Assembly: GCA_018985235.1 (NCBI GenBank)
Contig: JADGIG010000011.1
Location: forward strand, 1-54,577
Direction of reading: 5' to 3'
Length of the DNA stretch: 54,577 bases
From: Sanchytrium tribonematis
Lineage: Eukaryota
A program made the position numbers and the translations under genes. The notes under the pieces are model-generated. The model was not told the origin of the DNA and ran no database searches. It saw nothing but the letters and a program-made list of their open reading frames with translations. Below are positions 4,166 through 54,577 of this stretch, piece by piece. The first letter of the stretch is position 1. Each line of letters starts with the position of its first letter.

Positions 4166-5083
4166 ATGCTCCTCAGTAGATATTTATGGGTTTGGACCAC
4201 AGATGAGATTGTTGGGAATGTTGCCAAGACAAAGCAATTGGTCAATACATGTGCCCAAAATAATATCAAAGATGTGTTTTTGTATATCAATCCTAATAGT
4301 TATGGATACATGACAGATGGGCTAAAGTTATTAATTTCTAATTTAAATCGAGCCAATGTCAAAAGCTGGGGAATGGATGGCCGTCGAAGTTATTTTTCTG
4401 ATTCTGATGGACCCGGAAAGTTATTAAAAGGCGTTGACAATTTGATTTTGTATAATTCAAAAGTAGCAGCCAACGAGCGATTTGTAGGATTTCAAACTGA
4501 TATTGAATTACAAGATGAAAATGGGTTTAAACCTTCATTTCATAATGCTATCGGCGATTCTCATTTAAACAAAAAAAGCGGTGGAGTTTGGAAAAGCAGC
4601 CAGGCTGCTGATAGAGCGGCCCTTGTTCAGGATTACCTCAAGACGCATGATTTATTGAAAGCAAAATTGAAGCCAAAGGGACTGTTACTTGGTGCGGCTA
4701 TTCCTTCTTGGTGGGATGCGTATTATGGTGATCCTATAAGTGCAACTTATAAAGGGAAATATCAGGACATTTTTCGCCATTTAAGTGGAATTGTTAACGA
4801 AATTCATTTTATGGCTTATAATACCGACCCATTGAACGTAAAAAGCCGAGTTGACACAAAACTGCAATATTTGAGCAAATATACAAAAGTTAAGGCTTGT
4901 GTCGGTTTGGAGACTAATTCAGATGTAGGTGAAACTGTTAGTTATGGCGATACACCTGGCAAAAATTCCAAGAGAGCGTTAATGAGAGACATTTCCAAAT
5001 TAGAATCATTATTGAAAATCTTTACAGCTTTCAAAGGAATTTGTATACATGATTTTGATGGATTTTTAGCCTTACGCAAATAA
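4166..5083 (+). CDS. GH18-like TIM-barrel glycoside hydrolase, paralog 1
   Basis: FVGFQTDIE (DxE on a beta4-like strand), LGAAIPSWWD, HFMAY, GLET, C-terminal ICIHDF. First ATG at 4166, TATA-like tataaaa at about 4137. Confidence 0.55.
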   Translation: MLLSRYLWVWTTDEIVGNVAKTKQLVNTCAQNNIKDVFLYINPNSYGYMTDGLKLLISNLNRANVKSWGMDGRRSYFSDSDGPGKLLKGVDNLILYNSKVAANERFVGFQTDIELQDENGFKPSFHNAIGDSHLNKKSGGVWKSSQAADRAALVQDYLKTHDLLKAKLKPKGLLLGAAIPSWWDAYYGDPISATYKGKYQDIFRHLSGIVNEIHFMAYNTDPLNVKSRVDTKLQYLSKYTKVKACVGLETNSDVGETVSYGDTPGKNSKRALMRDISKLESLLKIFTAFKGICIHDFDGFLALRK

Positions 5084-5318: not shown

Positions 5319-6236
5319 ATGTTATTAAGCAGATACTTATGGCTATGGACCACTGAAGATATTGTTGGAAACGTGGCCAAAACACAAGAATTTGTCAAAA
5401 ATTGTAAAGACTACAATGTGAAGAATGTCTTTATGTTTATGGCACCCAGCAGATATGACGCGCTTGCAGATGGTCTCAAATTATTGATCTCAAATTTGAA
5501 TCGTGCGAATATTAAAAGCTGGAGCTTGGATGGAAGAAGAAGTTATCTCTCTGATTCTGATGGTCCTGAGGCATTACTGACGGGAGTGAAGAACATGTTA
5601 AAATATAACGAAAATGCTGCAGATGATGAAAAATTTGTTGGTTTCCAAACAGATTTGGAAATTGTGGATATTGATGGTTACAAACCAACATTTCACAATG
5701 CTCTAGGAGACTCTGAATTGGACAAGAACAGTGGTGGAGTCTGGAAAGATAGTCAAGCTGCAGATAGAGAAGCACTGGTCGAAGATTGGCTAAATACCCA
5801 CGATTTGATTAAAGCAGAGCTCAAATCTACTGGTGTATTATTGGGTGCCGCGATTCCTTCATGGTGGGATGCTTACTATGGGGATCCAATCAGTGCGACC
5901 TATAAAGGCGAATACCAGGATATTTTCAAGCATGTAAGCAATATTGCAGATGAAATACATTTTATGGCATACAATACTGATCCAGAAAATGTCAAAGGCC
6001 GAATTGACTCAAAACTACAATTTTTAAGTGAATCCACTAAAGTTAAAGCGTGCGCAGGTCTAGAAACCAATGAAGGAAATGGAGAAACAGTAAGTTACGG
6101 CGACAATCCCGAGAAAAACTCTAGAACAGCCATGATGAGGGACATCGCCAATTTGGAGAATCTATTAAAAGGATACTCAGCATTTTCTGGGGTTTGCATT
6201 CATGATTTTGATGGATTTATGTCATTAGGAAATTAA
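5319..6236 (+). CDS. GH18-like TIM-barrel glycoside hydrolase, paralog 2
   Basis: Colinear tandem paralog of 4166..5083 with long identical blocks (e.g. LLGAAIPSWWDAYYGDPISATYKG). TATA-like tataaata at about 5287. Confidence 0.55.
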   Translation: MLLSRYLWLWTTEDIVGNVAKTQEFVKNCKDYNVKNVFMFMAPSRYDALADGLKLLISNLNRANIKSWSLDGRRSYLSDSDGPEALLTGVKNMLKYNENAADDEKFVGFQTDLEIVDIDGYKPTFHNALGDSELDKNSGGVWKDSQAADREALVEDWLNTHDLIKAELKSTGVLLGAAIPSWWDAYYGDPISATYKGEYQDIFKHVSNIADEIHFMAYNTDPENVKGRIDSKLQFLSESTKVKACAGLETNEGNGETVSYGDNPEKNSRTAMMRDIANLENLLKGYSAFSGVCIHDFDGFMSLGN

Positions 6237-12612: not shown

Positions 12613-13479
12613 ATGAAAAAACAAGAATTAATTGGTGACTACCAACTAGTTAAGAAAATCTTCTCGGGAAAGACTAAAGATCCCATTACGTGTCAAAACT
12701 GGTTTCTATTTGTTGAGACTACCTTTACCACTGAAAATAGTCTTTGTTATGTGGAAATTTGTAAATTTACCGAAATCTATCACAGAGAATGTCAAAAAAT
12801 CAAATTGAACTCTCAAATCACAGAGGAAATCCTTGTAGTAGGGCCAGTCCCAGGTATGCAAGATTTCAACTGCGATATTAAAAGCGAGGACGAACTTAAG
12901 CAATGGGCCGAGACCATATGTTCTAAAATTATCAATAAGTTTGTAAAAACCGGAGCTGAAATGGAAATCAATATCAGCTCAAAAGCAAGAGAGGAATGTT
13001 TGGCTCAGATCAAGGCTGGACGATTTCACCCTTTGAATTTTGTTGACATTCAGAAAAGTGTTCTTGATGATATTGTTGGAAATGATTTGACCAAATTTAA
13101 GCAATTTGCTTTGGATCAGAATATACAAATTCAGCATCGTCGCTGGAGATTGGTAGGTGCCTTAGTTTTCCTTATGTTCAGTGGTGTGTTTTATGGGTTT
13201 GTCATGGGATTTCAGGTTGAGCAATACTATCGATTGTTGGGTCTTCCACTTCTCTATGAATTTGTCATATTTTATTTTCAATGGAAAATGAAATTCTGTG
13301 TCGTCTTTGCAGCCAAGAAAAAGATAAATACAAACGGATACCAGGGAGTTCCAGTTGAAGACGAGTATGTATGTGAATATCAGGCCCAAAGAGCCAAGAA
13401 AATCAGAAAAAAGTCAATGTTAATTGCTTTGATTTTGTATATCATTCTCTTTGTAGTACCACCATTTAAATGGCAATAA
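12613..13479 (+). CDS. RGS-domain protein with three C-terminal TM helices (Rax1-like architecture)
   Basis: RGS signatures ENSLCYVEI and FVKTGAEMEINISS, then three hydrophobic segments. Confidence 0.7.
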   Translation: MKKQELIGDYQLVKKIFSGKTKDPITCQNWFLFVETTFTTENSLCYVEICKFTEIYHRECQKIKLNSQITEEILVVGPVPGMQDFNCDIKSEDELKQWAETICSKIINKFVKTGAEMEINISSKAREECLAQIKAGRFHPLNFVDIQKSVLDDIVGNDLTKFKQFALDQNIQIQHRRWRLVGALVFLMFSGVFYGFVMGFQVEQYYRLLGLPLLYEFVIFYFQWKMKFCVVFAAKKKINTNGYQGVPVEDEYVCEYQAQRAKKIRKKSMLIALILYIILFVVPPFKWQ

Positions 13480-13582
13480 ATATTGACATAAACATTCATT
13501 TTCAACATTCTAATCTACGACCTAGCTCGATTTACGGCAAATGTATAGAAAAATATATTTTTTTTGAAACAAATTTCATTGA

Positions 13583-14829
13583 ATGAGTACGAGTCCTTCT
13601 ACATCAGCTCCTGCAATTGGTCTTTCAAACCTACCAAATCAATTGCACAAAACATCAATGAAAAGAGGCTTTGATTTCACTTTAATGATCGTAGGTGAGA
13701 GTGGGCTTGGAAAATCCACTTTGACAAATACTCTGTTTAACAGCATTTTATATCCACTTAAGGAGCCACAACCACTTACTAAGCTAACTCCAAAAACAAT
13801 ACAGCCACAAGTATTAACGGGAGTACTTAGCGAGAAAAATGTCCAACTCAGACTTAACATTATAGATACTCCTGGCTTCGGAGACTATATTAATAATGAA
13901 GAATGTACCCGTCCGTTAATTGAAACAATTGATGGCAGATTTGACCACTATTTGGAACAAGAAATGAAGCCAACCAGGAACAAGGTTGCTGACACCAGAA
14001 TTCATGCGTGCATCTATTTTATTCCCCCAACTGGGCATTCTTTAAGACCCATTGACATAGATTGTATGAAGCAGCTTCACGAAAAAGTCAATTTAGTTCC
14101 TGTTGTTGCAAAGAGTGACATTTTGACAAAAGAAGAATTGCAAGGATTTAAAGCTAGAATTCTCGATGATATTACTAGTAATGGTATTAAGGTTTTTCAA
14201 CCTACAACCTATGATTTTGACGATGAGCAGACAAAAGGTGAAAATTTAAATATTTTGAAAGCTATTCCATTCGCAGTTATTGGAAGCAACCAAGTTATTA
14301 AAAAAGATGGAAAAGAAGTAAGAGGACGTCAATATCCTTGGGGATCAATTGAAGTTGAAAATCCAGAACATTCAGACTTTCATTTGCTTAGAAGTTTGCT
14401 TATAAAAACTCACTTGGAAGAACTTCGAAGTCACACAAATGATGTTTTATATGAAACTTACAGAACACAAAAATTGCTCGCCCTAGGAAAAGAGCAAGAG
14501 TATGTGCCTAAAGATATCAAGTAACTTTTTATTTATCTAGCCCTCTTGTCAGTTTAGAAGAGCAACGTCATCAGCATGAAGCACGACTTGCTAAAATGGA
14601 GAATGACATGAAGCTTGTATTTCAACAAAAAGTCCAAGAAAAAGAAAGTAAACTTAAACAATCAGAAGATGAATTATATGCACGTCACAAAGAAATGAGA
14701 GAAGCGTTGGAAAGACAAAGACAGCAATTGGAAGCCGACAAAAAGAAACTAGAGCAGCAACTAGTTAGCAGTGGTGGAGCCCCAAAAGATGACAAAAGCG
14801 GTAAGAAGAAGGGATTCAGAGGCTTGTAA
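13583..14829 (+). CDS. CDC3: Septin, Cdc3/SEPT7-like; exons 13583-14520 and 14541-14829
   Basis: GESGLGKST, DTPGFGD, HACIYFI, AKSD, GRQYPWG, EVEN. Splicing a 20-nt GT-AG intron joins the GTPase domain in frame to the coiled coil (KDINPLVSLEEQRHQHEARLAKMENDMKLVFQQKVQEKE). Confidence 0.9.
14521..14540 (+). other. Predicted 20-nt spliceosomal intron (gtaactttttatttatctag)
   Basis: GT..AG, contains the in-frame TAA, and removal restores the frame. An alternative donor at 14500 (41 nt) is also in frame. Confidence 0.7.
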
Positions 14830-14991
14830 TAAATCAATCTTGTGACTTGACAAAGCATCAAGGCTGATTTCTGCATGCTAAAAGGCAAAACATGCAGGTC
14901 TGATTATAATCTGAAAAGTAACTATCGAACTGCTAAATAAAATTGAGAGCAAAACAATTAGGAGATCAAAAATTATGAACCCCCGAAACAA

Positions 14992-16435
14992 ATGTCTCAG
15001 TCATTAGAATCCCTAGTCACACGCCTTGAAAAAGTAACAGAAAGATTAGAAAAGACAGCCAACAATTCCGGATCAAGTGCACCTCAAAATGCTCCTCAAA
15101 CATCCGTCGGGGGATCATCCCAAATGGTAGATCAATTTGAAAAGATCTCAAACCAAATGACAGGAGAATCCCTTAAATTTGCCAACGCATTAGCTGATGA
15201 GCATCTCACCCGCACAATTCAGATCTTTCAGAGTGCATCCCAGTATACCATCAACTTGTTGAATGCTACATTGAAGTTCTCTAAGCCTTCAGCACAAGCT
15301 TTTCCACAGTTATTAACCCCAATTACCCAATTTGCATCTGATTTACAATCTATCAAGTCTAACTACCCAAAGAAACAGCCTTTGTTTAATGTTGTTTGTG
15401 CATTTATTGAGGGATATAATGTTTTCGGATGGGTTTCAATTAGTCCAACACCAGTCCCATTCATCAATGAAATGAAAGATGCTATGTCATTTTATAGTAA
15501 CAGAGCATTTAAAGAATTTAAAGATAAGGATGAAACTGTAATTAATTTATTGCAAGGATTTAACACCTTTATTACCGAATTAGCCCAATTTGTAAAACAA
15601 TGGCACACCACTGGATTAGTTTGGAAAGGTTCCAAAGAAATGGGAGCTAAAGATATGGAAGAATTAAAATCCCATGCTCCATCTGCTAGCCAAAGTAGCA
15701 GTCAACCTAAATCTACAAATGTGCAACCAGCAGCTACTGCGCCAACACCAACTGTTGCACCATCTACCACCGGATTATTTAGTGAATTGAACAAAGGTGG
15801 TGCTATCACTAGTGGATTGAAGAAAGTTGAAAAATCACAAATGACACATAAAAATCCTGAACTCCGTGCTAGTGGAGTCGTAAAATCCAAGGAAGAGACT
15901 GGTCAGCCAACAAGTGCACCCCAAGTTTCTGCTAAGGCTGCAGTGAAACCACCAGTTTTTGAATTGCAAGGGTCAAAATGGGTTGTTGAACATCAAATGA
16001 ACAACAAAAACATTATTATTGAGAATAGCAATTTAAAACAAGTCGTTTACATCTTCAATTGCCACAATAGTATTATTCAAGTTAAAAACAAAGTCAATTC
16101 AGTCACTTTGGACAACTGCAACAAAACTTCTGTTGTTGTTGATTCTGTGGTCAGTACATTGGATACTGTCAATTGCAAATCAATTCAGCTTCAAGTAATG
16201 AAGAGTGCACCAACTGTATTCAATATTTATTTAGATTGCCATTAACAAGACCGATGGATGCTTGTTGTATTTGGGTGAAGACATGGATAGTGAAATATTC
16301 AGCAGTAAACATTCTGAAGTGAATATATGTTATACACACAAGGGTGAAGTTGTCGAAAAGGCTATGGTTGAAATGTTTAAAACTGTCGTAAAAGATGGTG
16401 GATTAGTAACTGTCCCAGTTGAGCATTCTGCTTAG
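14992..16435 (+). CDS. SRV2: Adenylyl cyclase-associated protein CAP/Srv2; exons 14992-16215 and 16235-16435
   Basis: N-terminal RLE repeats, HTTGLVW, ITSGLKKVEKSQMTHKNPELR, CARP domain. After splicing the C-terminus reads SAPTIAINKTDGCLLYL...EIFSSKHSEVNI...EMFKTVVKDGGLVTVPVEHSA*. Confidence 0.93.
16216..16234 (+). other. Predicted 19-nt spliceosomal intron (gtattcaatatttatttag)
   Basis: GT..AG. Removal restores the conserved CAP PTIxIxKTDGC motif with no extra or missing residues. Confidence 0.85.
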
Positions 16436-16689
16436 AAAATAAATCGGTGACTTTTTGAAATTATTGATTCTTATTCGATTCCCACTTGAATTACAAATTT
16501 TTTTTAAAAAATAGTCCTCAAATTTTTGACACAAATTGTTTGAATTGAGGTGTTGCAAAAATTACAAAAGAGAAAAGGAAGCCTTTATCGAATTAATTAT
16601 AAGTCAGAAATTATAAATTTAGCTATAAGGCAATCTCGATGATGCACGATAATCCAATTTAGTCATCGCGAAAAGTCAAGCCACGACCA

Positions 16690-17562
16690 ATGAAAGAGTC
16701 GGAAAACCACTATATAAACCAGAGCGACCCGTCTTCCAAAATGCGACCCAAAATAGCACTTTACTCTACTTTAATAATGTTGGTAAAAAGCCAAAGCAAA
16801 ATTGATAAATTGCAAACCCTAGCACCACAAAAAGACTTTGAGAGGCAATGTGAAGAGTTGGAAGCAAAATACATCCTCCTTGCCTACAAGAAGACCATGG
16901 CTGGCCTTAATGACTTTGTGGACGAGTATATGGAAGCAAAATATAGAAACCCTTTTTTAGTGGAGGTCCCAGAAACTTTTGACGAGATTGTGAGTCAATC
17001 CAATGAAGTCGAGGAAGCAAATAAGCCTCTTGAAAGTGCAAGGTCTACCTCCTTTCAATTCAGTTTTCACAAATTGTTCAATACTATGAAAGCCAAAGCA
17101 GTCACACTGATGAAGAAGAAGGACTCAAAAGAGTGCTCACCTGTTTGTAGCCAAGAATTAAAGCATTCTAATAGCTCGTTACTATCCAAAATTAATTTTA
17201 AATTGTTCAATAGAAGAAACTCTGCAAATGCAACCAAAGTTTGTAGCGCGGAAATGCAAACCGAGGACATTGCAGAAGCAGTAAAAGTAGCACCTAAAGT
17301 TCTTGTTTGTTGTGCTGAGATGCAAACTGAGAATCTGAGTGAACCAAGCCAGCCTACTCTTCTTTTGAACACCTTGCGTACACCTGAGGCCCAATTGTTG
17401 CCACCACCACCGCCACCACCACCCCCAATCTTTCAGACTTCGGTGCCAAAGTTTGTGGTTGTGAAAAGAGAAAAACTGGGAATTATCCCAGGAAAGACCG
17501 ACGAACATGACAATCTTGTCGAAGAACTTAAAAATTATTTAAAATCAAGATATGTGGAATGA
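16690..17562 (+). CDS. Orphan protein with an internal duplication, polyproline tract and C-terminal amphipathic helix
   Basis: Repeats FHKLFN/FKLFN and VCSAEMQTE/CCAEMQTE, a P-rich run, and terminal HDNLVEELKNYLKSR. The true start may be a downstream ATG (16741 or 16777). Confidence 0.6.
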   Translation: MKESENHYINQSDPSSKMRPKIALYSTLIMLVKSQSKIDKLQTLAPQKDFERQCEELEAKYILLAYKKTMAGLNDFVDEYMEAKYRNPFLVEVPETFDEIVSQSNEVEEANKPLESARSTSFQFSFHKLFNTMKAKAVTLMKKKDSKECSPVCSQELKHSNSSLLSKINFKLFNRRNSANATKVCSAEMQTEDIAEAVKVAPKVLVCCAEMQTENLSEPSQPTLLLNTLRTPEAQLLPPPPPPPPPIFQTSVPKFVVVKREKLGIIPGKTDEHDNLVEELKNYLKSRYVE

Positions 17563-19038: not shown

Positions 19039-21417
19039 ATGTACCTGCTACTCATTAATTTAAACGCTCTGCTCTCACTGACGGTGGCCCCTTTAGAATT
19101 TCAAACTCAAAACGGGACAAAACAGCCCATCTATTCTGTGAGATTAACTGGATTCAACCCGAATGACATTGTTCAGTTGTCCGCTAATATTGATACGTCA
19201 GTTTGCCAGTCAAGTTGCTCGGATTTAAATACATCCACACCACAGTCTATTAATCCGATAAATAACATTTTGTCATTCTACACTCCCATTATATCACAAT
19301 ATTTAATATTCCACTTATACTATAATGCCAATGGCACCAATGCGACAAGAGTTTATGAGATCCATCCATTTGGAACCTCATTATCAATGATGCAGCAATC
19401 TGCAGAAATCCCATCCACTTTGAAACCCATTCTATTGAATTTGAATCAATTTCACAAACACACAAATCACATCCATAAGAGAGATCAGCAAACAAAGTAT
19501 GATCCAAACATTAATTCCATTGATCATCATCCAAATAATTTTCAATCCACTCTTTTTAGGGTGAAAAATGCGACCGATATCCCTAATTCTGCTCATCAAA
19601 ATGGACTATCAAGAGCATTCCATGCAATGGTACATTTTATTTCGAAAATTGGACATACATTCATTGGATTTATCAAATCTATTGTACTTTTGTTTAATTG
19701 GCAAATGTACACAAATATTATTCATTTTCAACTATATTATATTCAAGGTGCGTTTGAAACAATGTGGGTCCAAGCACCAGTTGCACAAACCCAATTTAGC
19801 AGCTTTTTGGATAAGTTGAAATACAATAATTCTAATTCAATCAATAATGCGCCAAATTTCACACAAATCAAAGAGACCCACATTACCGAGAATGTTGAAT
19901 TAGATGGGCCCAAAAATGATCCAAGAGCATTGTTTGTAAACGACCACGTCATTAATCACGTGAATGTGTCCTCGAAATTATCCAATTTATTTCACCATCC
20001 TTTAAATATGATCAAGAGTCTGTTTTCGAATGGGAATGTAGATGTCTTGAATTCACCTGTGGAATCCACCTTGAAGTTCAAATCTCTGTCTCTTTTACAA
20101 TCTGTGTCAAATTCTACTTTTCCGCTGATGAAAAGTTTTCATGAATCTATGATGGATATTCTACGAATGCCACTTGGCGACCTTCCAATTTTAAATATCT
20201 TCAGAAATATATTTGGCTCCAAAAGATCGCAGCCAATAATTGCTGATCATTATTCAAATCCCTTGCAAGTGAATCTGTTAAACATTCTACTGTTATTTGG
20301 GGCTATTCAGTCTCAAGTACTCTATGCGGGGATTTACCATGCACCCATGATAACAAAAGAAGATTTAAAAGCAATTTATAAATCACCCACTATTCATCAT
20401 ATGCCCCACACTTGGCTACATGGTCTTGGAGAAGGGACTGTTACCGAAATGATTCACAGAGAATACAGAATCAAATGCATCGTGGACTGGATACCCAAGC
20501 ACTCCGTTTTAACTATGTTAGAACTGTCTGGATTTCAGTTAATAATCACACCTATGTATATAACGTCAAGCATGTTCAGCCAAATTACTAGTCAAATATT
20601 ATATGTTTTGGAAACTTTTTTAATTATTCCATTTGCGTATCCACTTGATTTCTTGCAATGGAAATCTTCACAAAAATTGCCGTTCAACACTATGGCCGCA
20701 ATTTACGGAAATATCTACCCTCCGTATTACACCATGTGGTATTTATGGCATTTGACTTGTATATGGCATATGACTCGTCCTTTATTCTTTATTGCTGAAA
20801 ACGTGTTGAATGCGCGTGCTTTGTCGAATGGGTTGGCAAACCAAATTAGTAGAATTGTACCAAGCAATATTTTAAAATCTTTTACATCGATGTTTGTCAA
20901 ATCTGCTGGTTCATTATTGTCTATGAATACATTTCACAAAGTCAAGGGCGTTTTAATGGCAATACCTCAAATTTGGTGTGTTCATGAAATGACGCATGAT
21001 TTATACGCTGCTATAGACATCAATAACCCAGTGCATCGTGCGCATTACACTTTCAACGCATTTGCGTGGTGGATGGACACATTGAGCATGCTAATGGGGA
21101 TGGTTGGAAATGAATTGCGAATGATTTTACCACTTATTGGAAGCGGCATGAGTCGCTTAAAGACTGTTGGCCAGAGCATTAAAGGATTTAATAACAAGTT
21201 GGAAAGTGTCATCAATTTATTTGCTACGGGTAGATTCTTAGATTTGGCTGAAATTACAGTTGTAGCTCTAATGATTGGCGGTTATTTTGTGCGAACCACT
21301 TTCATGATGCTGAACGGAATACCGGGTGTATTTGTTTATTATGATAGCGAGTACGTGGATGAAATTAAGTCAAACAAAAAAATAGATTTACCGGAACTGA
21401 ATTACATTAAAAAATAA
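19039..21417 (+). CDS. Large hypothetical secreted/membrane-associated protein
   Basis: About 790-aa ORF with a short hydrophobic N-terminus from ATG 19039 and amphipathic/hydrophobic helices in the C-terminal half. Confidence 0.65.
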   Translation: MYLLLINLNALLSLTVAPLEFQTQNGTKQPIYSVRLTGFNPNDIVQLSANIDTSVCQSSCSDLNTSTPQSINPINNILSFYTPIISQYLIFHLYYNANGTNATRVYEIHPFGTSLSMMQQSAEIPSTLKPILLNLNQFHKHTNHIHKRDQQTKYDPNINSIDHHPNNFQSTLFRVKNATDIPNSAHQNGLSRAFHAMVHFISKIGHTFIGFIKSIVLLFNWQMYTNIIHFQLYYIQGAFETMWVQAPVAQTQFSSFLDKLKYNNSNSINNAPNFTQIKETHITENVELDGPKNDPRALFVNDHVINHVNVSSKLSNLFHHPLNMIKSLFSNGNVDVLNSPVESTLKFKSLSLLQSVSNSTFPLMKSFHESMMDILRMPLGDLPILNIFRNIFGSKRSQPIIADHYSNPLQVNLLNILLLFGAIQSQVLYAGIYHAPMITKEDLKAIYKSPTIHHMPHTWLHGLGEGTVTEMIHREYRIKCIVDWIPKHSVLTMLELSGFQLIITPMYITSSMFSQITSQILYVLETFLIIPFAYPLDFLQWKSSQKLPFNTMAAIYGNIYPPYYTMWYLWHLTCIWHMTRPLFFIAENVLNARALSNGLANQISRIVPSNILKSFTSMFVKSAGSLLSMNTFHKVKGVLMAIPQIWCVHEMTHDLYAAIDINNPVHRAHYTFNAFAWWMDTLSMLMGMVGNELRMILPLIGSGMSRLKTVGQSIKGFNNKLESVINLFATGRFLDLAEITVVALMIGGYFVRTTFMMLNGIPGVFVYYDSEYVDEIKSNKKIDLPELNYIKK

Positions 21418-23573: not shown

Positions 23574-23679
23574 CAATGTATATGGTAATGCGATCTTGCT
23601 GCCAAAACTTGTCATTCCCAAGTCCCAATGTATATGGTAATGCGATCTTGCTGCCAAAACTTGTCATTCCCAAGTCCCA
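23574..23679. repeat. Perfect 52-bp tandem duplication
   Basis: caatgtatatggtaatgcgatcttgctgccaaaacttgtcattcccaagtcc at 23574-23625 and again at 23626-23677. Confidence 0.95.
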
Positions 23680-24665: not shown

Positions 24666-27600
24666 ATGTTATTGGCAACTTTATTACTAGCTACTATCAA
24701 AGTATTCCAGTCACATTTTGAAATAAATGGAAAAGCGACACTATTAAGAGGAGGATCGTTGCAATGGTATCGACTGCCCAAATCCGAATGGGAAGACAGA
24801 TTATTAAAATTTAAGGCAGTAGGCTATAACATGGTGGAAATTTATGTCAGTTGGCAATACATAGAGCCTATACAAAATCAATTCCATTTAGATGATCTAC
24901 AGGACTTTTTAGAAATGTGTAAGAGATACAATTTGTATGTTTATATTCGGCCAGGCCCATTTATTTGCAATGAAGAAAATGCGGGTGGTTATCCCAATTG
25001 GGTGATTGCTCAATCAGACAAAATTATTAATCCAGATAGTTTGGATGGCAAGTATTCTCTCAGAAGTGATGATTTGGATTTTTTGGTGATTGTCAAATCT
25101 TATTTTAAAGCAATTAATCGTATCATTAAGCCATTTCAGATTTCTCACAATGGCACTATCATCCTTTATCAAGTAGAAAATGAATTTGATTATTACATGC
25201 AATCACTGGATGTAGATAGATATGCGTGGATTAAAGATCACCCAGAGAGACCTTATAATCAAACGATCAATATCAATAATTATTTCAATCACTTAAATGA
25301 GTTTATTCGGGAAGATGGTATTGATGTGCCTTCAACGACTTGTCCTGGAACCTTGGAAATGCTTTCAATGCCTACTGACACCACCATTATCCCACTTCCA
25401 AACTATTATTCCAGCACAACTCAAATTGAAACTAATTTTTTAAACTATAAACTCGTTCAAAATCAGAATAAAAATTTGGTGCCTGCTGGGACTTCAGAGA
25501 CATTCCGGGCCTCACATGCACTATCAAGAATGATACTGTCTGGAATGGATCTTGTTTCCCAATTCAACACTTTTGGGCATTTTGCGCATGGACATCACCA
25601 CTCTACAATTTTACAATTATTAGGAATTATGACTGCAGCTGATTTGCCTAAGATGTTCCATCAGTTATTTCATCCACCATCTACTGGTAAAATCGTTGCG
25701 GTCCCAATTGCTTTATTTCCCTCCCAAATGGATTTAAATGGAATTGTATCACCAAGTGGTCAAATTAGGAATCAATTTTTTCATATTCATCTTTTAAATA
25801 TATTTTACAACACTTTTGAGTACCTTATTGCACCTGTTAATATGCCTTATATCTCATATACCAACAAACGACTAAACAAAGCAAAACGATCCAACAAATT
25901 TCCAGTGAATGATGAGATATTTGTCAAAAGTTCAAAAGTCGGAGCATTGGATACCAATCGACATAGATTTATTAGCTGGATGCCATTGAATGCAAGCAGG
26001 ATCAATCAAACCATCTTAATTGGAATTTTAAATCCTTCTTCTGAAGATATTGAATTACCACCCCATTCCATCCAAACACCAGATTTTGACTTTCCTCTAA
26101 TTTCGAAAGTAACCATACCTTCTCAATACATCAATACACTCCAAATTCAATCCGATACAAAATATGATTCCACAGACACGATGTATGTCAGTCATTTAAT
26201 TATAAACCTGATATTTATTTATCATTTTTATTTCAGTACAATCCCATTTACATATAAAAGATTACTGGAAAGCAATGAAAAGAAAAGCGGATTGATTGCG
26301 TTGCACAACAAACCAGACACGGAATATGAGATTTTAATGAATTTATTTGATATTCCTAAACCTAAAAATATTCCACTATATAAATTTAAAAAATCAGACT
26401 CATTCAAGGCAAAAGGAAACTATATTCTTTTGTATGGGTCTGTTAAAAATACTCCTGTTATTCATCATTTGCCAAATTTGACAATTTTAATTTTAAATAC
26501 ATTTTTAGCAAGTCGGTTGTACAATCACAAAGTTGAAAATAAGTCAATTGATTTTATTGGTGTAGATTTGTTACTTGGTGGTAAAATTGTGATGCTTGAT
26601 ATCATCAGGTCATTTTACACATTTCAGTTATTTGAAAAAGAGACAGATCTCATTAAGCTTAAATATCCTATATTATCCAGTGAAACGACATTGAATGGGA
26701 TGCTGATTCAGTATGATTTACCTCGGTATTTTAGAAAAAGTGAATTTGAGATAAATGGACCTTTTCTAAGCGAGTTTTCTGGATTTACTGATTTCAGGTC
26801 ATACAACTCACCGCTTCCTTACATTGAACAATTACAGCTAAATGTTACCAACGAAAGAACTGAATTAGATAGTCTGAATGGCCCGCTAAATGACTACACT
26901 GAATATTCTACTGACATCTCTGAAAATATTCAGAAATTATTTGCCGACTCCAAAAAACCTAAGAAAGTGGTGCTTGTTTTTGAAAGGCTGGGTGATTTCG
27001 CTTGTTTTTACTTAAATGATAAGCCTCTGGAGTGTCGCACACCTTTGATGATGATGCACAAATTTGAAATTGATTCAAATCATTTTAATCTTAAGGATAC
27101 TTCCAAGTATATTTTGAAGATAGTTGTATCTATTTGGGGTAGAGGCAATTTTATGTTTCCCAGTGGCGATTTGGGTCATATTCCTTACAAAAATAAGAAA
27201 ATCAATACAGGAATACATTTTAATATGGTCATTCTAGCCTGTGACGGATTGAAAGGTGTATTTGGAAATACCACTTTAAATGGTTCACCTCTTAGGAAAT
27301 TTAACGTGAGCTCAAAATTTGCCAGAGATAGCAGCAAATTGACAAGGCTTAACCAATACAGTAAATCTGATGCTCCGAGGAGCGTACAAGTAAAAAAGGG
27401 AGAATTAAAGTGGGTTTCGTACTTTATAAAATCGAAGCATCTGATGACTACATCAAAAATCGCAAACTCCATTAAATTAAAGGGTCAAAGTTTGAAAGCA
27501 AATCTGTATATTAACAATATTGTCATTGGTAAATTTATCAGCGATGAAGGCTTTATCCAAGACGGAAATGGGTATGACGTGGACTCTCATGGTCGATCTT

Positions 27601-27782
27601 TAGCGGACACGCATTCATTTCCAGTCGTCAACTTTGAAGAAGGGTTTCAGCTAGATATGTTACTGGACGGAAGAAGAGATGGTGCTGTTTTAGAAGAAAT
27701 TAAAGTGGAAATGAGCAGAGAAATTTACTTAAAAGATGGCAGTAAAATTGGACAAATTGAATACAAATTTGATATTGAGTGA
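24666..27782 (+). CDS. Glycoside hydrolase family 35 (beta-galactosidase-like), secreted
   Basis: GGSLQWYRLP, GYNMVEIYVSW, IRPGPFICNE, GGYPNW, ILYQVENEF. First ATG at 24666, about 22 nt after a tataag box. Confidence 0.85.
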   Translation: MLLATLLLATIKVFQSHFEINGKATLLRGGSLQWYRLPKSEWEDRLLKFKAVGYNMVEIYVSWQYIEPIQNQFHLDDLQDFLEMCKRYNLYVYIRPGPFICNEENAGGYPNWVIAQSDKIINPDSLDGKYSLRSDDLDFLVIVKSYFKAINRIIKPFQISHNGTIILYQVENEFDYYMQSLDVDRYAWIKDHPERPYNQTININNYFNHLNEFIREDGIDVPSTTCPGTLEMLSMPTDTTIIPLPNYYSSTTQIETNFLNYKLVQNQNKNLVPAGTSETFRASHALSRMILSGMDLVSQFNTFGHFAHGHHHSTILQLLGIMTAADLPKMFHQLFHPPSTGKIVAVPIALFPSQMDLNGIVSPSGQIRNQFFHIHLLNIFYNTFEYLIAPVNMPYISYTNKRLNKAKRSNKFPVNDEIFVKSSKVGALDTNRHRFISWMPLNASRINQTILIGILNPSSEDIELPPHSIQTPDFDFPLISKVTIPSQYINTLQIQSDTKYDSTDTMYVSHLIINLIFIYHFYFSTIPFTYKRLLESNEKKSGLIALHNKPDTEYEILMNLFDIPKPKNIPLYKFKKSDSFKAKGNYILLYGSVKNTPVIHHLPNLTILILNTFLASRLYNHKVENKSIDFIGVDLLLGGKIVMLDIIRSFYTFQLFEKETDLIKLKYPILSSETTLNGMLIQYDLPRYFRKSEFEINGPFLSEFSGFTDFRSYNSPLPYIEQLQLNVTNERTELDSLNGPLNDYTEYSTDISENIQKLFADSKKPKKVVLVFERLGDFACFYLNDKPLECRTPLMMMHKFEIDSNHFNLKDTSKYILKIVVSIWGRGNFMFPSGDLGHIPYKNKKINTGIHFNMVILACDGLKGVFGNTTLNGSPLRKFNVSSKFARDSSKLTRLNQYSKSDAPRSVQVKKGELKWVSYFIKSKHLMTTSKIANSIKLKGQSLKANLYINNIVIGKFISDEGFIQDGNGYDVDSHGRSLADTHSFPVVNFEEGFQLDMLLDGRRDGAVLEEIKVEMSREIYLKDGSKIGQIEYKFDIE

Positions 27783-31868: not shown

Positions 31869-34805
31869 TTATTGCAATACAATTCCTCGTTGTTCAATAT
31901 TCTGCTTGATCTGCTTCAAATGACTCGCCACACATTCTATATTCACCCATGAATAGACCTTGTCAATTGTATTCAAAATTGCCATTTCATTCAATAAAAA
32001 TGACCCTATTTCACTTCCAATATTATTATTGCTGTTACTGTTTCTCGTATGCTTTTCAATCACGGCAATATTTAAATAATCCATTCCGCCCATCAAAACC
32101 ATGTTGTGAATACAGCAACTAATACTAATCATTTCATTCTCATTTCCTCTCATGTAATCCATCATCAATATCCATATCCATTCACCAATGATATCCATTT
32201 GAATATCAAGCTTATTTGAAGAATACAAATGATGCGTCGTATGGCAATTTAATTTAGTCCATTCCCGAATACACTCAATTCCACCATTTTTAACATCTTC
32301 CATGTCCATATCCAACATAATTGTAATAATTCTGCATGACAATTGTGAAAAATCATTTGAAAATCCATTTGGCATATTGGGTGAATTATTAGCCATGGAA
32401 GCATTTCCATTCAACTGCTTTGTCGTTTGCTGTAGTGTATTCGTGCTTAATACCCGTCTAAACCATTTGGAATAGTGGGTTAAAAATTTGGGCCATCTCA
32501 TGTCCATTTCATTTAAATGCATTAATCCATTTAAAATCAAAGTGAGTGATTTCATTAAAACGTCATCTTGATAATAAATCATGGCGCTATAAAATAACCC
32601 ATCGTTTAAAAATTGGCATTTGAATTTGAGTAAATAAGTGAGTGATTTGACGGGTGACAAAGATTCATTGGAATTATTGCCCATGGTTTGTGAATTTTGA
32701 GTCATGGTGGCTTCAACACATTTGCACATTAATCCACCTAGTTCCCTGAATAATGGAAATACCATGTACTCGTGCTGAATGCTTTTTAATAATTCATTAT
32801 TGTGTAATGCGCATGACATTTTCATCACGCTCTTTAAAAATTGAATATCATGCTGGTATTTACCAAATAAAGAGTGGATGAGTGGTATCAAGTCATTTAA
32901 GAGCAATTGGATTAAACTTTTTAAACCGAATTCAGAATGGCAGCCTTGTAGAATTCCTTGAATTGACCTGATCAGTCCAATCGCATTTCCATTACCAGAT
33001 ACACTATTCAAAGAATCATTTAAATTGTTTAAATTCAGTGTATCATTGTTGGAATTGTTATTGAGTGCCTGATTGCATTGACTTTGCAAGTAATCCATTA
33101 ATTTGTAAATCATTTCACCATCTTTGTTGAATGCAACATGAGAGATAAATTCATAGTAAACGACACGGTATTTAGGATAATAATATTCGAATAGCAAAGG
33201 TCTATTGTAATCCAAATTGACTAACAGCGGACTGGTTAACGCAAATCGCATGCAAGTAATTGAATTTGAATAAAACTGAAATATTTCCATGCACATTTGA
33301 ATGATGTGAGACTGAGTTGGATGAGCCTGCAAAATATCATATACTTTGCTGAGTAGCAAATGAAATAAGGATTGCCGAGATTCACATTGAATAATAGTGA
33401 AAAATGCTTGGTTAAAGCAAAATGAATCCCAGACATAATTCTCTGTAATATTTTTTATAAACGAGGTGTAATAAGTGAATAATAATACGAGGTATTCATT
33501 GATGTCAAAATGGTCTCTCAGACTTGCAAATTCACTATTATTTGAGGCACCTAGCTGTGCTGTGTCTACAGTATTCATGTGTATCATTTTTATGAACAAT
33601 TGCGCATCATACTGGTCATTTAATTCATTTTCATAAATGTTGATTTTACATTTAAAAATAGATTGACCGATTGAAAGTAAATGAACGTTATTGAGTGCCA
33701 AAACGTGTGGTATGTAGACTGAGTACGATTCTCTAATGCATTTTGAAATTAAATCTAGGCAGTCAGAAGCAATATCGAATGGATACAAGTAAATTGGGGT
33801 AGAAATCAATTGGGTCAAAATGTTGTTTGGTGCCGACATACTGGAGGTATTGTTGTCTAAAATATGCAAATCTACTGTAAAATGCTTGTAAATTGGTACA
33901 TAGAGTGGAAGAATAGATGGATTTAATGGAATTTGATAGAATATACTTGAAAATTGCTTGATTTCTAATAAATCCTCAAATTCCATTCCCATGTGCAAAT
34001 CCAAAACAGTGTTAATTATCAAAAGCGCCGTGGATTCTATGTTGTCAAGCGGGGTGTAATCGATATAAGCTTGTGGATCTAAAAGAGGGGAATTTGGACT
34101 ATTTAATGGCGTGTTTGGGGGACTCTGAATCAAATTAACATTTTCTGCTAATTTGATGTTGCTAAACACGCATTTTATCAAATCCCGTCTATCCTGATAC
34201 GAAATGCAGGATCTTCGCATTTTCACAATCTGATGGATACATTTGTAATTTCCAAAAGTGTGATTAGAAAATAGAAGTGGGACTAAATCTAAGAGAGGCC
34301 TACGGTATTGCATATCAGGAATAACAGAGTTATCGTCTTCAATACTAGTCAAAGACTTGGTGATTAAATGAATATTGTTCGATTGCAACGCTTTGCTGAG
34401 TATCTGAGACGCCAATTTGCGTTTGGAATATTGCTTGATACTAGAGAGTTCATCTAAAATATACTCAGATGTAATATCATCTAAACTTGTGTCGTTTAAT
34501 GAATGATTAAATGATATACAGTGATTCGCAAACGCATAACACATCATCTTATAAATTGACTGGTTCCCTATAAATTGAAATGGATTTGGATCAGCAGCAT
34601 TTAGTGCAATTTGGTATCTATTGATAATATTCGTGAAATATGGAATATACTGAATATTTGGATGTTTTCTCAAGTGCGAAAATACAAGAAATTTTGTAGT
34701 GGGCTGGTATTGGTCTAATAAATTTGGATTGATAAGTTGAATGAACTGGGTCTGAAGGTCTATTTGCCCTTGTGTTAATTGTATTGCAACCTGATCAATT
34801 TGCAT
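31869..34805 (-). CDS. Divergent exportin-7/RanBP16-17-like karyopherin
   Basis: About 980-aa helical protein. YRVVYYEFI, IGLIRSIQGI, LFRELGGLM, YYQDDVL and RWPKFLTHY recall the exportin-7 motifs RTTFY, IGLxRDLRGI, LFRE, LYGDxAL and YPKL. First ATG at 34805. Confidence 0.5.
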   Translation of the reverse strand: MQIDQVAIQLTQGQIDLQTQFIQLINPNLLDQYQPTTKFLVFSHLRKHPNIQYIPYFTNIINRYQIALNAADPNPFQFIGNQSIYKMMCYAFANHCISFNHSLNDTSLDDITSEYILDELSSIKQYSKRKLASQILSKALQSNNIHLITKSLTSIEDDNSVIPDMQYRRPLLDLVPLLFSNHTFGNYKCIHQIVKMRRSCISYQDRRDLIKCVFSNIKLAENVNLIQSPPNTPLNSPNSPLLDPQAYIDYTPLDNIESTALLIINTVLDLHMGMEFEDLLEIKQFSSIFYQIPLNPSILPLYVPIYKHFTVDLHILDNNTSSMSAPNNILTQLISTPIYLYPFDIASDCLDLISKCIRESYSVYIPHVLALNNVHLLSIGQSIFKCKINIYENELNDQYDAQLFIKMIHMNTVDTAQLGASNNSEFASLRDHFDINEYLVLLFTYYTSFIKNITENYVWDSFCFNQAFFTIIQCESRQSLFHLLLSKVYDILQAHPTQSHIIQMCMEIFQFYSNSITCMRFALTSPLLVNLDYNRPLLFEYYYPKYRVVYYEFISHVAFNKDGEMIYKLMDYLQSQCNQALNNNSNNDTLNLNNLNDSLNSVSGNGNAIGLIRSIQGILQGCHSEFGLKSLIQLLLNDLIPLIHSLFGKYQHDIQFLKSVMKMSCALHNNELLKSIQHEYMVFPLFRELGGLMCKCVEATMTQNSQTMGNNSNESLSPVKSLTYLLKFKCQFLNDGLFYSAMIYYQDDVLMKSLTLILNGLMHLNEMDMRWPKFLTHYSKWFRRVLSTNTLQQTTKQLNGNASMANNSPNMPNGFSNDFSQLSCRIITIMLDMDMEDVKNGGIECIREWTKLNCHTTHHLYSSNKLDIQMDIIGEWIWILMMDYMRGNENEMISISCCIHNMVLMGGMDYLNIAVIEKHTRNSNSNNNIGSEIGSFLLNEMAILNTIDKVYSWVNIECVASHLKQIKQNIEQRGIVLQ

Positions 34806-39961: not shown

Positions 39962-41041
39962 ATGAAACGCAATGACGAAGCATTTGAAAATGAGGACATT
40001 GAGGTGCTTTTTCAAAGGCACTTTAATTCGCAAGAGGAAAGGAAGGACACAGTCAAAGATGATGATTCTTACAGAGAAGATTTGCTACAAGCTAAAGATT
40101 GGTTTTCTGTACTTTATATAATTGCTACAGCAAGCAGTTTATTTGCCACATACAAACTAACAGGTGTCAATTTAGCACTCCAACTAGAATGTTTTACAAC
40201 AGTTTGGTTGATTTGCTTTGAGCAAATGACTTTATCTTCGTGGAAACATACAAATCCGGCTTTAATCCAGTATACCATTTTTCATTTAATTAATTTTGTT
40301 GTAATATGCGCACTTGCAACCTGTGTTCCTTATATATTGAATGACCCAGTTGCCGCTCAAGTCTATGCCGCTGTGATGATTTGCCACAAATTTTCATTTT
40401 TAATTCAGCTAATACAAAGATTCTGGAATTGTTACACTCCATCAATAATATCATATGGCATAGTTTGTATTATTGATATGATCTTGTTTGGTATCTCAAT
40501 TCAATATCCTTCCTACTATTTTTGGTATGCTGCAAGCATTTTACAATTCTTAAATTTTATTTATTTTATAAAAGAACATTTTCACAATCGCATACAATAT
40601 TATTTCTTTGCAGATCGTGTGGGTGATATTACTGGAGCCTATTTTATTGCCTTTTTTGCAATTTTGACAACTTTACCATTAGCAGCGACCTGGGTACATT
40701 TCCCATTTCTACTCATATTCTGGTATCATTTTCAAAATATTGGCGTATTTGATAACATTAATTACATTCTATGGATATCGTCACTGTATTTTTTCCACAT
40801 TTCCATGTATATCTTTTACTTTTATATAGAAAATCAAAACTGGTCTATCGTTTTGATTTGTATTGGCATGATAGCTAGCACTAGTGTCTCCATTTATGAT
40901 AAGATTCAGCTGGTATTTCGTGCATTTTTTGCCTTATGTGCCTTGGTTTATTTGGTATATCCCGATATTTTATTAATTTACGCATTGATGTTTGGATTAA
41001 TTGGAACGGAATTAATTTACAAATTAAGAATTCCAAAATAA
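39962..41041 (+). CDS. Polytopic membrane protein, possibly LtrA-like
   Basis: Ten or more hydrophobic segments. DWFSVLYII and FADRVGDIT loosely recall the LtrA motifs ELFFDLVF and LAERFGLFT. Confidence 0.45.
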   Translation: MKRNDEAFENEDIEVLFQRHFNSQEERKDTVKDDDSYREDLLQAKDWFSVLYIIATASSLFATYKLTGVNLALQLECFTTVWLICFEQMTLSSWKHTNPALIQYTIFHLINFVVICALATCVPYILNDPVAAQVYAAVMICHKFSFLIQLIQRFWNCYTPSIISYGIVCIIDMILFGISIQYPSYYFWYAASILQFLNFIYFIKEHFHNRIQYYFFADRVGDITGAYFIAFFAILTTLPLAATWVHFPFLLIFWYHFQNIGVFDNINYILWISSLYFFHISMYIFYFYIENQNWSIVLICIGMIASTSVSIYDKIQLVFRAFFALCALVYLVYPDILLIYALMFGLIGTELIYKLRIPK

Positions 41042-41169
41042 ACTTGTGGACCCTTTTTTGCAATTTTTGTCGAATCAATGTCTAATGGCTAAATGATGTC
41101 ATAAAAGACAAACAGTAGATCAAGACTGGTATTCGTGAGAGCCGCACCTAGATTAGCCTTATTCTCGAC

Positions 41170-42100
41170 TTGTTGTGCGACGCACAAGAGAATGAGCAGC
41201 CAGCCATGGAGCAAGCCAATTGCAGGCGCATGTATAGTTCTCCCCAATAGTGCCAGAGCAAAGGGTGAAATGGAGCGAATTTCGAGTGGATGAAGACGGA
41301 CTAAGTAGTACATCTGCGGAACCATATCAATCGGAATCGGTGCCTGGCATATTAAGAGATTGGGAGAAAGAGTATAGAGATTACCGCATTAAAAAATATG
41401 AGGAATATTGGATGAATGCGTATGGGAGCACCAAGGGATTAAATGCCGCGCTTAAAAGGATGGAGGCAAACGAGGTAAAGCAGGTTGTGAATCCAGCTCA
41501 AGGCAATAGAAATGATTGGCCAAAACACGTGGACATGAACAAAGAGCAACAAGTCACCGCATCAACTGAGGCTGATTGGCCAGAGCACGTGGAAATAGTA
41601 GATGATAGCAAAAGAAATGAAAAATAGAGACTACAACAAACTCAATAAACAATGACTATTAAAACTACAATAGGCAATGCAAACATGCAAGAACAAACGC
41701 CTGAACAGTATCAGAATGGACAAGAGAGTCTACCCACACGGACCGCTCGCAGAGCAAAACCACAGAGAATCAAATACAGGTCGATGACCAATCCTCTTTC
41801 AAGCAGTCATTGAGTGAGAAAAGCTACTCCGAGAAGCTCAGTAAGTTAAGTAGCATGAAGAAAAAGAAAGAAAAAGAAGAAAAAGAAAGAAGCATCAGAG
41901 ATTTGAATCGTAGTAGATTCACACCAGAGAAAGCACTAAGCAAGTTGAGGGAGTTTAACTCTAAAAACAGCATTCCAAGGAATAGAATGAAAGATGTAGA
42001 TCAATCACAAGCCAGCTTTAATGCTAGCGAGTTAATTGGGCAACATCTGTTGAACACGCATGAGTTTCCAGGGCGAAACGAGTCGTGTGCTACGACTAAA
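41170..42100 (+). repeat. Unclassified dispersed repeat, copy A
   Basis: Aligns to 46385-46880 (caagagaat.agcagc, caagccaattgcagg, tatcagaatggacaag, cgatgaccaatcctcttt, gagaagctcag, caacatctgttga). Carries extra sequence at about 41330-41690. Confidence 0.8.
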
Positions 42101-42356
42101 CTGTTTTTTTGATGGGGGCGCAATCTTTTTGTCTTTTGTTTTTCTTTTTTTACCTAATTTAGCTGTCCAATATATTATATAAATAGTAAAGTTATTTGAT
42201 AATTGTTTCGAGTCGTGTCAACTAAGTAATTGTGAATCTGTGAATTTTCCCCAAATCCCGAAAATATCAATGCGACCACGATTAAAAGCTTTGAAAGCAA
42301 AATATTTAGGTAAACTTTGGCTCGACATTTTATTAAACAGGATTTCGTAACGCATA

Positions 42357-44021: not shown

Positions 44022-44289
44022 TAGATTACTATATGTCGTAATGAGGAAGATGATAACATAAATTGTTTAGAGTTTTGGAGTTGTCAATCACCAGAATGAT
44101 CTGGTGGTGTTTTGAGTGGGATTTTGTAAGGAATTTTGGTGCAACCCTGGTGCGGAACCAAAAATCTGCTCATGTGTTGCTTTTAATTGGCTAAATGGAT
44201 CCACGTATTAGCAGTTTGTAGCATTGGAAACATTTGAACCAAAATGTCGTAATCAAAAAGAAGATAATTTTTTGAGATGCGCGCCCCTT

Positions 44290-45850: not shown

Positions 45851-46384
45851 GAATTAGAAGAAGAACTTCCGTTGTGTAATATTACTGACTTCACATATAT
45901 GAAGATTGATACAGGTGATGATTGAAGTCATAATCCAGTGTTCAAAGTCTATTTAGTTGGAGAAGATAGTGTTCCGTATGGGAAACCAATCACAAAAATG
46001 TGGAAAACACTTTTGCATTTCACGAATTTGTAATGAAAGCTAAAGATGATTCCAATTATGTTTACATAGACACATTTTTAATTCATAAATTATTGGATAA
46101 AAGCTTATTTTTAAGCTTTTATTGTTTCAAATAATGGAAATAAAGGAAAAAATGGACATTGCAACACGAATGTAGTATCTAAAGTAAAAAAGGCAGCAAT
46201 TAAAATGTTTTATGACATATAAATATCTCTTGCCCAATAAATACTTATTTATATTTACATTTCTGGGGAATTTCTTCTTGTTCTGTTATTTGTGATATTG
46301 TGTAAATTACAATAATTAAAATTTTAAAAGGGATAATATTCCCTTTGATATTGGTTTACAAAATTATTACAAGGCTACATCAAA

Positions 46385-54500: not shown

Positions 54501-54577
54501 AGTTAGTCCTTAAAAGGCCTTGACGGGACTAAACTATGAGACTTGATTTTCCCTCTAAAAATGTATTTTTTCAAAAC

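What the first reader, a model, noticed from the sequence alone, without database searches (positions are those of the whole stretch)
14500..14540. 20-nt intron in the septin, sharing a 3' motif with the CAP intron, plus a competing 41-nt donor
Seen: gtaactttttatttatctag (14521-14540) removes the stop and fuses the two septin ORFs. Both tiny introns fit GTAxT...TATTTAT(C/T)TAG, so an A about 5 or 9 nt from the 3' end could be a fixed-position branch point. GTATGT at 14500 gives an in-frame 41-nt alternative. The 20-nt version retains YVPKDINP, which aligns with the VFKEVNP-type segment of fungal Cdc3 as I recall it, so the short form is favoured. The only two introns I can detect in about 25 genes are both about 20 nt and lie in 3' portions of cytoskeletal genes.
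Basis: partly seen in the sequence, partly recalled or inferred. Interest (0 to 1): 0.78.

Follow-up and report, generated by a model that had tools for sequence, protein, structure and literature searches.

The report
Ultra-short introns in sanchytrid fungi
A septin gene of an alga-parasitising sanchytrid fungus is interrupted by a 20-base stretch at an intron position shared with mushrooms, and its neighbour by a similar 19-base stretch; both are most likely true spliced introns, shorter than any fungal intron I found described.

Summary
The 20-nt GT-AG segment 14521-14540 is there, and removing it gives a complete 408-aa Cdc3 septin. All 10 homologues tested pick exactly these ends. A 92%-identical relative is continuous across this junction and keeps YVPKDIN. 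Agaricomycete-like Cdc3 genes carry 51-57-nt introns at the same base, so this is likely an old intron that shrank. The 41-nt donor has no support.

The host is a sanchytrid, in a 100/100 clade with Amoeboradix gromovi. Four related septin ORFs and three related CAP ORFs break at the same sites, with inferred introns of 19-22 nt, possibly 15-16 nt. One relative's intron, solved from two reading frames, shares its last 11 bases with the window's. The branch A is likely at -6, as in Stentor; -10 is not excluded. No RNA reads were available.

Ultra-short introns are known elsewhere. I found no report for sanchytrids, nor of fungal introns this short. The scan had noted only longer tiny introns (Rozella, 26-30 nt), and nothing for this genome or its relatives.

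The parts
13583..14520 (+). Cdc3-type septin, exon 1 (GTPase domain; ends in phase 2 inside the Asn codon of D-I-N-P)
   Evidence: Pfam Septin E 7.5e-108; closest named hits are Cdc3/septin-7 proteins
14500..14505 (+). GTATGT, donor-like hexamer formed by the E-Y-V codons; probably unused (41-nt alternative)
   Evidence: In frame; chosen by 0 of 10 spliced alignments; no intron at this site in 80 loci
14521..14540 (+). 20-nt GT-AG intron, phase 2, with in-frame stop TAA at 14522-14524
   Evidence: same site carries 51-57-nt introns in L075-L078 and L080
14530..14540 (+). Conserved 3' motif TATTTATCTAG; predicted branch A at 14535 (-6), alternative A at 14531 (-10)
   Evidence: Shared with the CAP intron and with a relative's intron; best predicted U2 pairing at -6
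14541..14829 (+). Septin exon 2 (C-terminal coiled coil and basic tail)
   Evidence: Matches the C-termini of P0122, P0003 and other Cdc3 proteins
14992..16215 (+). CAP/Srv2 (adenylyl cyclase-associated protein), exon 1
   Evidence: Pfam CAP_N, and CAP_C profile positions 1-91
16216..16234 (+). 19-nt GT-AG intron, phase 0; predicted branch A at 16229 (-6)
   Evidence: 7 of 7 spliced alignments; CAP_C splits at profile position 91; P0126, P0127, P0128 break at the same codon
16235..16435 (+). CAP exon 2
   Evidence: Pfam CAP_C profile positions 91-157, E 4.8e-14; junction as in continuous P0129

Best explanation
The 20-base GT-AG segment sits at an intron position that this Cdc3 septin gene shares with mushroom-forming fungi, and it is most likely an ancient spliceosomal intron shrunk to 20 bases and removed by the major spliceosome, probably branching at the A six bases from its end. 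Shown: the ends, the restored reading frame, the shared position, and the same break in related sanchytrid ORFs. Inferred: U1/U6 read a minimal GTA donor; U2 pairs, partly by G-U wobble, with TATTTAT (a U-rich version of TACTAAC) that abuts a four-base YTAG acceptor with no separate pyrimidine tract; the lariat loop is about 15 nt. The better-looking donor GTATGT 21 nt upstream is likely passed over because the donor is chosen by its distance from this fixed 3' block. An unspliced transcript would stop at once (TAA) and lose the coiled coil. The 19-nt CAP intron and the 19-22-nt introns inferred in relatives suggest that few, ultra-short introns are the rule in Sanchytriomycota.
For: (1) Of 27 GT/GC..AG pairs that restore a long frame, spliced alignment of 10 of 10 Cdc3 homologues picks 14521-14540. 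Paraphysoderma P0003 aligns across the junction without a gap. (2) P0122, 92% identical to exon 1 and on a 1234-nt JGI contig barely longer than its CDS, reads YVPKDINPLVSLEEQ without a break; it is 96% identical to intron-bearing P0123, so it is probably a spliced transcript. (3) 5 of 80 loci (4 distinct introns) have a 51-57-nt intron at the same codon and phase, and their best named matches are Boletus, Ganoderma and Abortiporus Cdc3. Of 67 exon-2-like database ORFs that reach upstream of the junction, 52 show unrelated sequence followed by S-P, the read-through mark of an acceptor at this site; 14 are continuous and 1 is unclear. (4) P0001, P0123, P0124 and A. gromovi P0002 all break after YVPKDIK; CAP relatives P0126, P0127, P0128 break after APT. 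(5) P0124 and P0371 solve jointly to one 19-nt intron whose last 11 nt equal the window's, while the other 7 pairings tried give no solution. P0127 gives a 19-nt CAP intron with exon 2 readable as VAIN, and the same method recovers the window's own 19-nt CAP intron. (6) An A stands at -6 in both window introns and in all 5 back-translated relatives with a candidate acceptor; -10 is not A in 3 of them. (7) The eggNOG table of A. gromovi lists Prp8, Brr2, U2AF small subunit, Snu13, SNRNP40, cactin and Dbr1 (PMC8371127 supplement file 4, passages).
Against: No RNA read from this organism was seen, so splicing, its efficiency and the branch point are unobserved. Whether P0122 and P0129 come from RNA or from intron-less genes is not on record. 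Relatives' introns are read from proteins, not DNA: the 22-, 16- and 15-nt lengths, and 3 of the 5 A(-6) calls, assume that the ORF's stop codon is the TAG acceptor. In relative P0252 (19 nt) the donor reads GYCC, the -6 base is undetermined and the -10 base is A. Sanchytrid U2 snRNA was not seen; the pairing assumes the canonical branch-binding sequence. Only two genes were examined, both found because their introns break the frame. My aligner cannot model plain frameshifts, and in 3 of 7 CAP alignments it also called 30-39-nt in-frame gaps in the variable linker as introns.
Confidence: 0.85

Rival explanations
1. Same 20-nt intron, but the branch point is the A at -10 (14531; 16225 in CAP), which puts it 10-11 nt from the donor as in Stentor.
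For: Both window introns and P0127 and P0252 have an A at -10. Stentor branch As lie at +10 or +11 (PMC9505925, passages).
Against: -10 is not A in P0001, in the solved P0124/P0371 intron, or in P0128. In the CAP intron the -10 A pairs far worse with canonical U2 than the -6 A.
Confidence: 0.25
2. The intron is real but poorly spliced, as in microsporidia, and retention tunes septin and CAP levels or yields a tail-less septin.
For: Short Encephalitozoon introns are spliced at under 20% (PMC6349667, passages). The first intron codon is a stop in the window and in A. gromovi.
Against: Exon 2 is 90% identical among relatives, and P0122 shows the full-length form exists in a close relative. Cdc3 needs its coiled coil (general knowledge, recalled).
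Confidence: 0.15
3. The 41-nt intron from donor 14500 is the main form, or a real second isoform lacking seven residues.
For: GTATGT is the yeast-type donor consensus, it is in frame, and the TATGT part is also present in two relatives.
Against: It would delete YVPKDIN, which is invariant in the six sanchytrid-clade rows and matched in Blastocladiomycota. 0 of 10 alignments choose it. 0 of 80 loci have an intron there, while 5 have one at the 14521 site. The hexamer follows from conserved E-Y-V codons.
Confidence: 0.06
4. An assembly error or a broken gene that only looks like an intron.
For: Sanchytrid genomes were assembled from amplified DNA (PMC8371127, section 6), and the end of the window holds decayed sequence.
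Against: Seven independent relative ORFs break at the same two codons with different tails. Both exons stay conserved, and the site is an intron in other fungi.
Confidence: 0.01

Closest known systems
15-16-nt introns of the ciliate Stentor coeruleus (PMC9505925; passages seen)
   Same: GTA donor, U-rich body, YAG end, predicted branch A six bases from the 3' end; the commonest Stentor intron ends in a very similar U-rich-A-U-x-UAG block
   Different: Stentor has about 8,800 introns of two lengths. Here the introns are few (2 in 26 genes), 19-22 nt, in a fungus, and the 3' block is conserved letter for letter between genes and between relatives.
Microsporidian short introns, Encephalitozoon cuniculi (PMC6349667 and PMC2483917; passages seen)
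   Same: Fungal relative, reduced parasite genome, few and short GT-AG introns with a constrained 3' end (branch consensus CTAAYTT)
   Different: About 25 nt or longer, many right after the start codon of ribosomal protein genes, poorly spliced. Sanchytrids are sister to Blastocladiomycota, so the shortening is independent, and these two introns lie at 76% and 86% of the CDS.
Mikrocytid (16-17 nt) and chlorarachniophyte nucleomorph (18-21 nt) introns (PMC10245619; passages seen)
   Same: Narrow ultra-short size class in reduced genomes; mikrocytid introns are also conserved in sequence
   Different: Rhizarian and green-algal lineages, with hundreds of introns
Fixed branch-to-AG introns of intron-poor lineages: Yarrowia, Trichomonas, Giardia (PMC2483917; abstract and passages seen)
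   Same: Branch motif anchored a fixed few bases from the AG, no separate pyrimidine tract
   Different: Those keep an ACTAAC-type motif and Yarrowia introns are long; here the motif is U-rich (TATTTAT) and the whole intron is 19-20 nt
Myxobolid and dicyemid introns, median 22-27 nt (PMC13644364; parts 1-2 of 3 read)
   Same: Parasite lineage with convergent shortening at conserved intron positions; donor reduced to GTa
   Different: Animals; intron-rich; weak 3' signals

Membership tests
U2-type (major) spliceosomal intron | GT...AG ends whose removal restores a conserved reading frame | tested here: met
   408-aa septin, 10 of 10 homologues
U2-type (major) spliceosomal intron | Position and phase shared with ordinary spliceosomal introns of orthologues | tested here: met
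   5 of 80 loci, 51-57 nt, same codon and phase
U2-type (major) spliceosomal intron | Removed from the RNA (junction reads) | tested here: inconclusive
   No reads for this organism; continuous P0122 from a close relative is probably a transcript
U2-type (major) spliceosomal intron | Lariat formed at a branch adenosine paired with U2 snRNA | not testable with these tools
   Only predicted pairing and conservation of A at -6; no snRNA in the window
U2-type (major) spliceosomal intron | Host encodes a major spliceosome | tested here: inconclusive
   Prp8, Brr2, U2AF, Dbr1 and others are annotated in the relative A. gromovi; the window's own genome is not held
Ultra-short intron lineages (Stentor, mikrocytids, nucleomorphs) | Genome-wide narrow length class under about 25 nt | tested here: inconclusive
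   2 introns seen (19, 20 nt), 3 well inferred (19, 19, 19), 3 conditional (22, 16, 15); two genes only
U12-type (minor) intron | Extended donor RTATCCTT and branch site CCTTAAC (consensus recalled) | tested here: not met
   Neither is in either intron
Ire1-cleaved 19-20-nt HAC1-type intron (recalled) | bZIP host gene; cut in hairpin loops, without GT-AG ends | tested here: not met
   Hosts are septin and CAP; ends are GT-AG at a spliceosomal intron site
Cdc3 / septin-7 group septin | Septin GTPase domain, Cdc3-type C-terminal coiled coil, nearest hits Cdc3 | tested here: met
Sanchytriomycota (host lineage) | Groups with a named sanchytrid, next to Blastocladiomycota | tested here: met
   Septin 89% identical to A. 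gromovi; clade 100/100 on a long branch; one-gene tree, midpoint root, species not determined

The most novel reading that the evidence does not exclude
Sanchytrids have a length-measuring spliceosome: all their remaining introns are 15-22 nt, reaching the Stentor record (16 nt in P0123's septin, 15 nt in the Amoeboradix CAP gene). They carry a fixed U-rich branch block, perhaps matched by a changed U2 snRNA, and ignore perfect donors at the wrong distance. They may also have kept 3' introns while losing 5' ones, against the usual fungal trend.
Probability: 0.3. Interest if true: 0.8.

Novelty: new variant of a known kind. Interest (0 to 1): 0.64.

Why it matters
It adds a further independent origin of ultra-short spliceosomal introns, the first I could find in fungi outside the microsporidia-Rozella side, and at 19-20 nt shorter than the roughly 25-nt microsporidian introns. 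Because the septin intron has 51-57-nt orthologues at the same base, one intron can be compared before and after shrinking. The natural pair of a perfect upstream donor and a weaker used donor makes the minimum-length and distance-measuring questions directly testable. In practice, public sanchytrid proteins were called as plain ORFs on genomic contigs (PMC8371127 methods), so intron-bearing genes are truncated (P0002, P0121, P0125, P0128), which can distort gene-loss and domain inferences for the phylum.

Tried and rejected
No RNA holder listed for the stretch; the one DNA run, X1, is identical over 13000-17000 and may be the window's source, so it is not independent. No whole genome is held. 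No sanchytrid DNA was recovered: the metagenome scan gave 80 loci of at most 59% identity, and the genome and viral collections gave none. No CAP gene lay in the fetched loci, so the age of the CAP intron site is untested. Rfam found nothing in the window. The 50%-representative search gave no sanchytrid exon-2 ORF beyond P0252. Other intron candidates were rejected: 40807-40829 and 32762-32746 lie in intact ORFs and would shift the frame; the 30-39-nt linker gaps in CAP are G-rich, in frame and inconsistent between queries; the break in the SSB-like ORF near 50480 is a frameshift whose one GT-AG option creates a stop (read by eye). A cytoskeletal bias cannot be judged from two adjacent genes. 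Lee et al. 2010 on microsporidian intron structure was not held. Of the sanchytrid paper's supplements, file 2 (scanned pdf) could not be read and file 4 was cut when stored.

Full report
OBSERVATION. The window is compact eukaryotic DNA of about 35% GC, with 26 genes in its first 41 kb, 85% coding and a median gap of 162 nt. ORF 13583-14524 is a septin GTPase domain that stops at YVPKDIK. The segment 14521-14540 is 20 nt, GT..AG, and contains that stop; removing it gives 408 aa ending in a Cdc3-type coiled coil. The donor-like GTATGT at 14500 gives an in-frame 41-nt alternative. The next gene, CAP/Srv2, is split by a 19-nt GT..AG segment at 16216-16234, and Pfam CAP_C divides at profile position 91 across it. 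Both end in TATTTATYTAG, found exactly twice in the window.

WHICH DONOR. 27 donor-acceptor pairs could restore a long frame. A spliced protein-to-DNA alignment chose 14521-14540 for 10 of 10 Cdc3 homologues, and 16216-16234 for 7 of 7 CAP homologues. In 3 of the 7 CAP runs it also called in-frame gaps in the variable linker, which I treat as alignment gaps. Paraphysoderma Cdc3 matches the 20-nt product without a gap. P0122, in the window's own 90% cluster, is a 407-aa protein on a 1234-nt JGI contig that runs through YVPKDINPLVSLEEQ. It is 96% identical to the intron-bearing P0123, so it is probably a spliced transcript of a close relative, though its molecule type is not on record. The 41-nt form would remove seven residues that are invariant in this clade.

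AN OLD INTRON, SHRUNK. Among 80 metagenome septin loci, 62 had at least one intron call. Five of them (L075-L078, L080; four distinct introns) carry a 51-57-nt intron at the same codon and phase as the window's, and none has one at the 41-nt site. Their best named matches are agaricomycete Cdc3 proteins. Four of these loci have six introns, and the window gene has only the last of the six sites. Of 121 exon-2-like database ORFs, 54 start after the junction; of the other 67, 52 show unrelated sequence followed by S-P, as expected when an ORF caller reads through an acceptor at this site (one, P0357, may be genuine protein), 14 are continuous and 1 is unclear. The site is therefore widespread in basidiomycete-like genes. 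Shared ancestry is the simplest reading; parallel gain is not excluded.

HOST LINEAGE. The septin is 89% identical to that of Amoeboradix gromovi (P0002), then drops to 59% for Paraphysoderma. In a 30-protein tree the window, A. gromovi and four unnamed proteins form a 100/100 clade on a long branch next to Blastocladiomycota. This fits Sanchytriomycota, algal parasites with genomes of about 11 Mb and 35% GC (PMC8371127, section 6 and passages). I did not determine the species.

RELATIVES. No relative's DNA could be fetched, but intron-blind ORF calls preserve intron sequence as protein. Septins P0001, P0123, P0124 and P0002 all break after YVPKDIK with different tails. CAPs P0126, P0127 (and near-identical P0245) and A. 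gromovi P0128 break after APT, while P0129 is continuous. P0124 and P0371 have matching contig records and read the same DNA in two frames. They solve to a 19-nt GT..AG intron whose last 11 nt equal window 14530-14540, whereas the preceding 20 exon bases differ at 3 places; the other 7 pairings tried had no solution. P0252 gives another 19-nt septin intron. P0127 gives a 19-nt CAP intron with exon 2 readable as VAIN, and the same method recovers the window's true CAP intron. If the ORF stop is the TAG acceptor, P0001 is 22 nt, P0123 16 nt and P0128 15 nt; these three are conditional. P0002 and P0126 stop too early to tell.

MECHANISM. Shown: ends, frame, position, conservation of the 3' block. 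Inferred: removal by the major spliceosome, whose core parts (Prp8, Brr2, U2AF, Snu13, Dbr1) are annotated in A. gromovi (PMC8371127 supplement file 4). An A stands at -6 in both window introns and in all five back-translated relatives with a candidate acceptor, while -10 is not A in three of them. The heptamer around the -6 A pairs best with canonical U2 in both introns. Stentor's predicted branch A is also at -6 (position 10 of 15, 11 of 16; PMC9505925). I put the -6 branch at about 0.6. Against it, P0252 has a sure A only at -10 and an unusual GYCC donor. Passing over GTATGT for GTAACT suggests donor choice by distance; this is inference, with no RNA count behind it.

HOW MANY INTRONS. A frame-joining scan and two motif scans found no third convincing intron, and loose matches equalled chance. 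About 92% BUSCO completeness from intron-blind ORF calls in the two published sanchytrid genomes also points to few introns. Both introns lie late in their genes (76%, 86%), whereas fungi tend to lose 3' introns first (PMC8476143, passages). With two genes this is a lead only, as is the cytoskeletal link.

WHAT IS KNOWN. Ultra-short introns are described in heterotrich ciliates (15-16 nt), mikrocytids (16-17), nucleomorphs (18-21), myxobolids and dicyemids (median 22-27) and microsporidia (about 25). Fixed branch-to-AG spacing is known from intron-poor lineages. Searches for sanchytrid + intron, Sanchytrium + introns, Amoeboradix + spliceosom, Sanchytriomycota + intron, ultrashort introns + fungi, tiny introns + branch point + fungi, and shortest introns + fungi + Blastocladiomycota listed no paper on sanchytrid introns. 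In the three listed papers I opened, 'intron' occurs only in a reference or for Blastocladiella; the others were seen as listings only. The library omits most subscription papers, and one supplement file was unreadable. The scan's own notes hold nothing for this genome or its relatives, and unchecked notes on 26-30-nt Rozella introns.

VERDICT. The intron is real with high probability and the 20-nt form is the right one. The single intron is ordinary in mechanism; its interest is as a well-anchored sign of an apparently undescribed, independent origin of 19-22-nt introns in a fungal phylum. New variant of a known kind; interest 0.64.

Noticed in passing
window 41100-54577: Gene-poor, AT-rich end of the window with DDE_1 (pogo-like) transposase remnants (Pfam hit at 44733-45191, minus strand; similar broken frames near 42441-43201 and 45492-45740).
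   Followed up: partly
window 50099-50530, minus strand: SSB-like ORF that matches only the second half of the Pfam profile; the likely first half is in another frame, with a shift near 50480 and no usable GT-AG intron.
   Followed up: partly
window 4166-5083 and 5319-6236: Two tandem paralogues of 305 aa each; the first was scanned and has no Pfam match.
   Followed up: no
window 23574-23677: Perfect 52-nt tandem duplication inside the 1.9-kb gap between genes.
   Followed up: partly
P0129 (ENA, 2938-nt contig): Sanchytrid-like CAP that is continuous across the intron site: either a transcript or a recent intron loss.
   Followed up: no
P0002, P0121, P0125, P0128: Public sanchytrid septin and CAP proteins are truncated at the tiny introns because ORFs were called without splicing.
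   Followed up: yes
window 24666-27782, 19039-21417, 31869-34805: A 1038-aa GH35 beta-galactosidase-like protein, and two long proteins (792, 978 aa) with no Pfam match.
   Followed up: no
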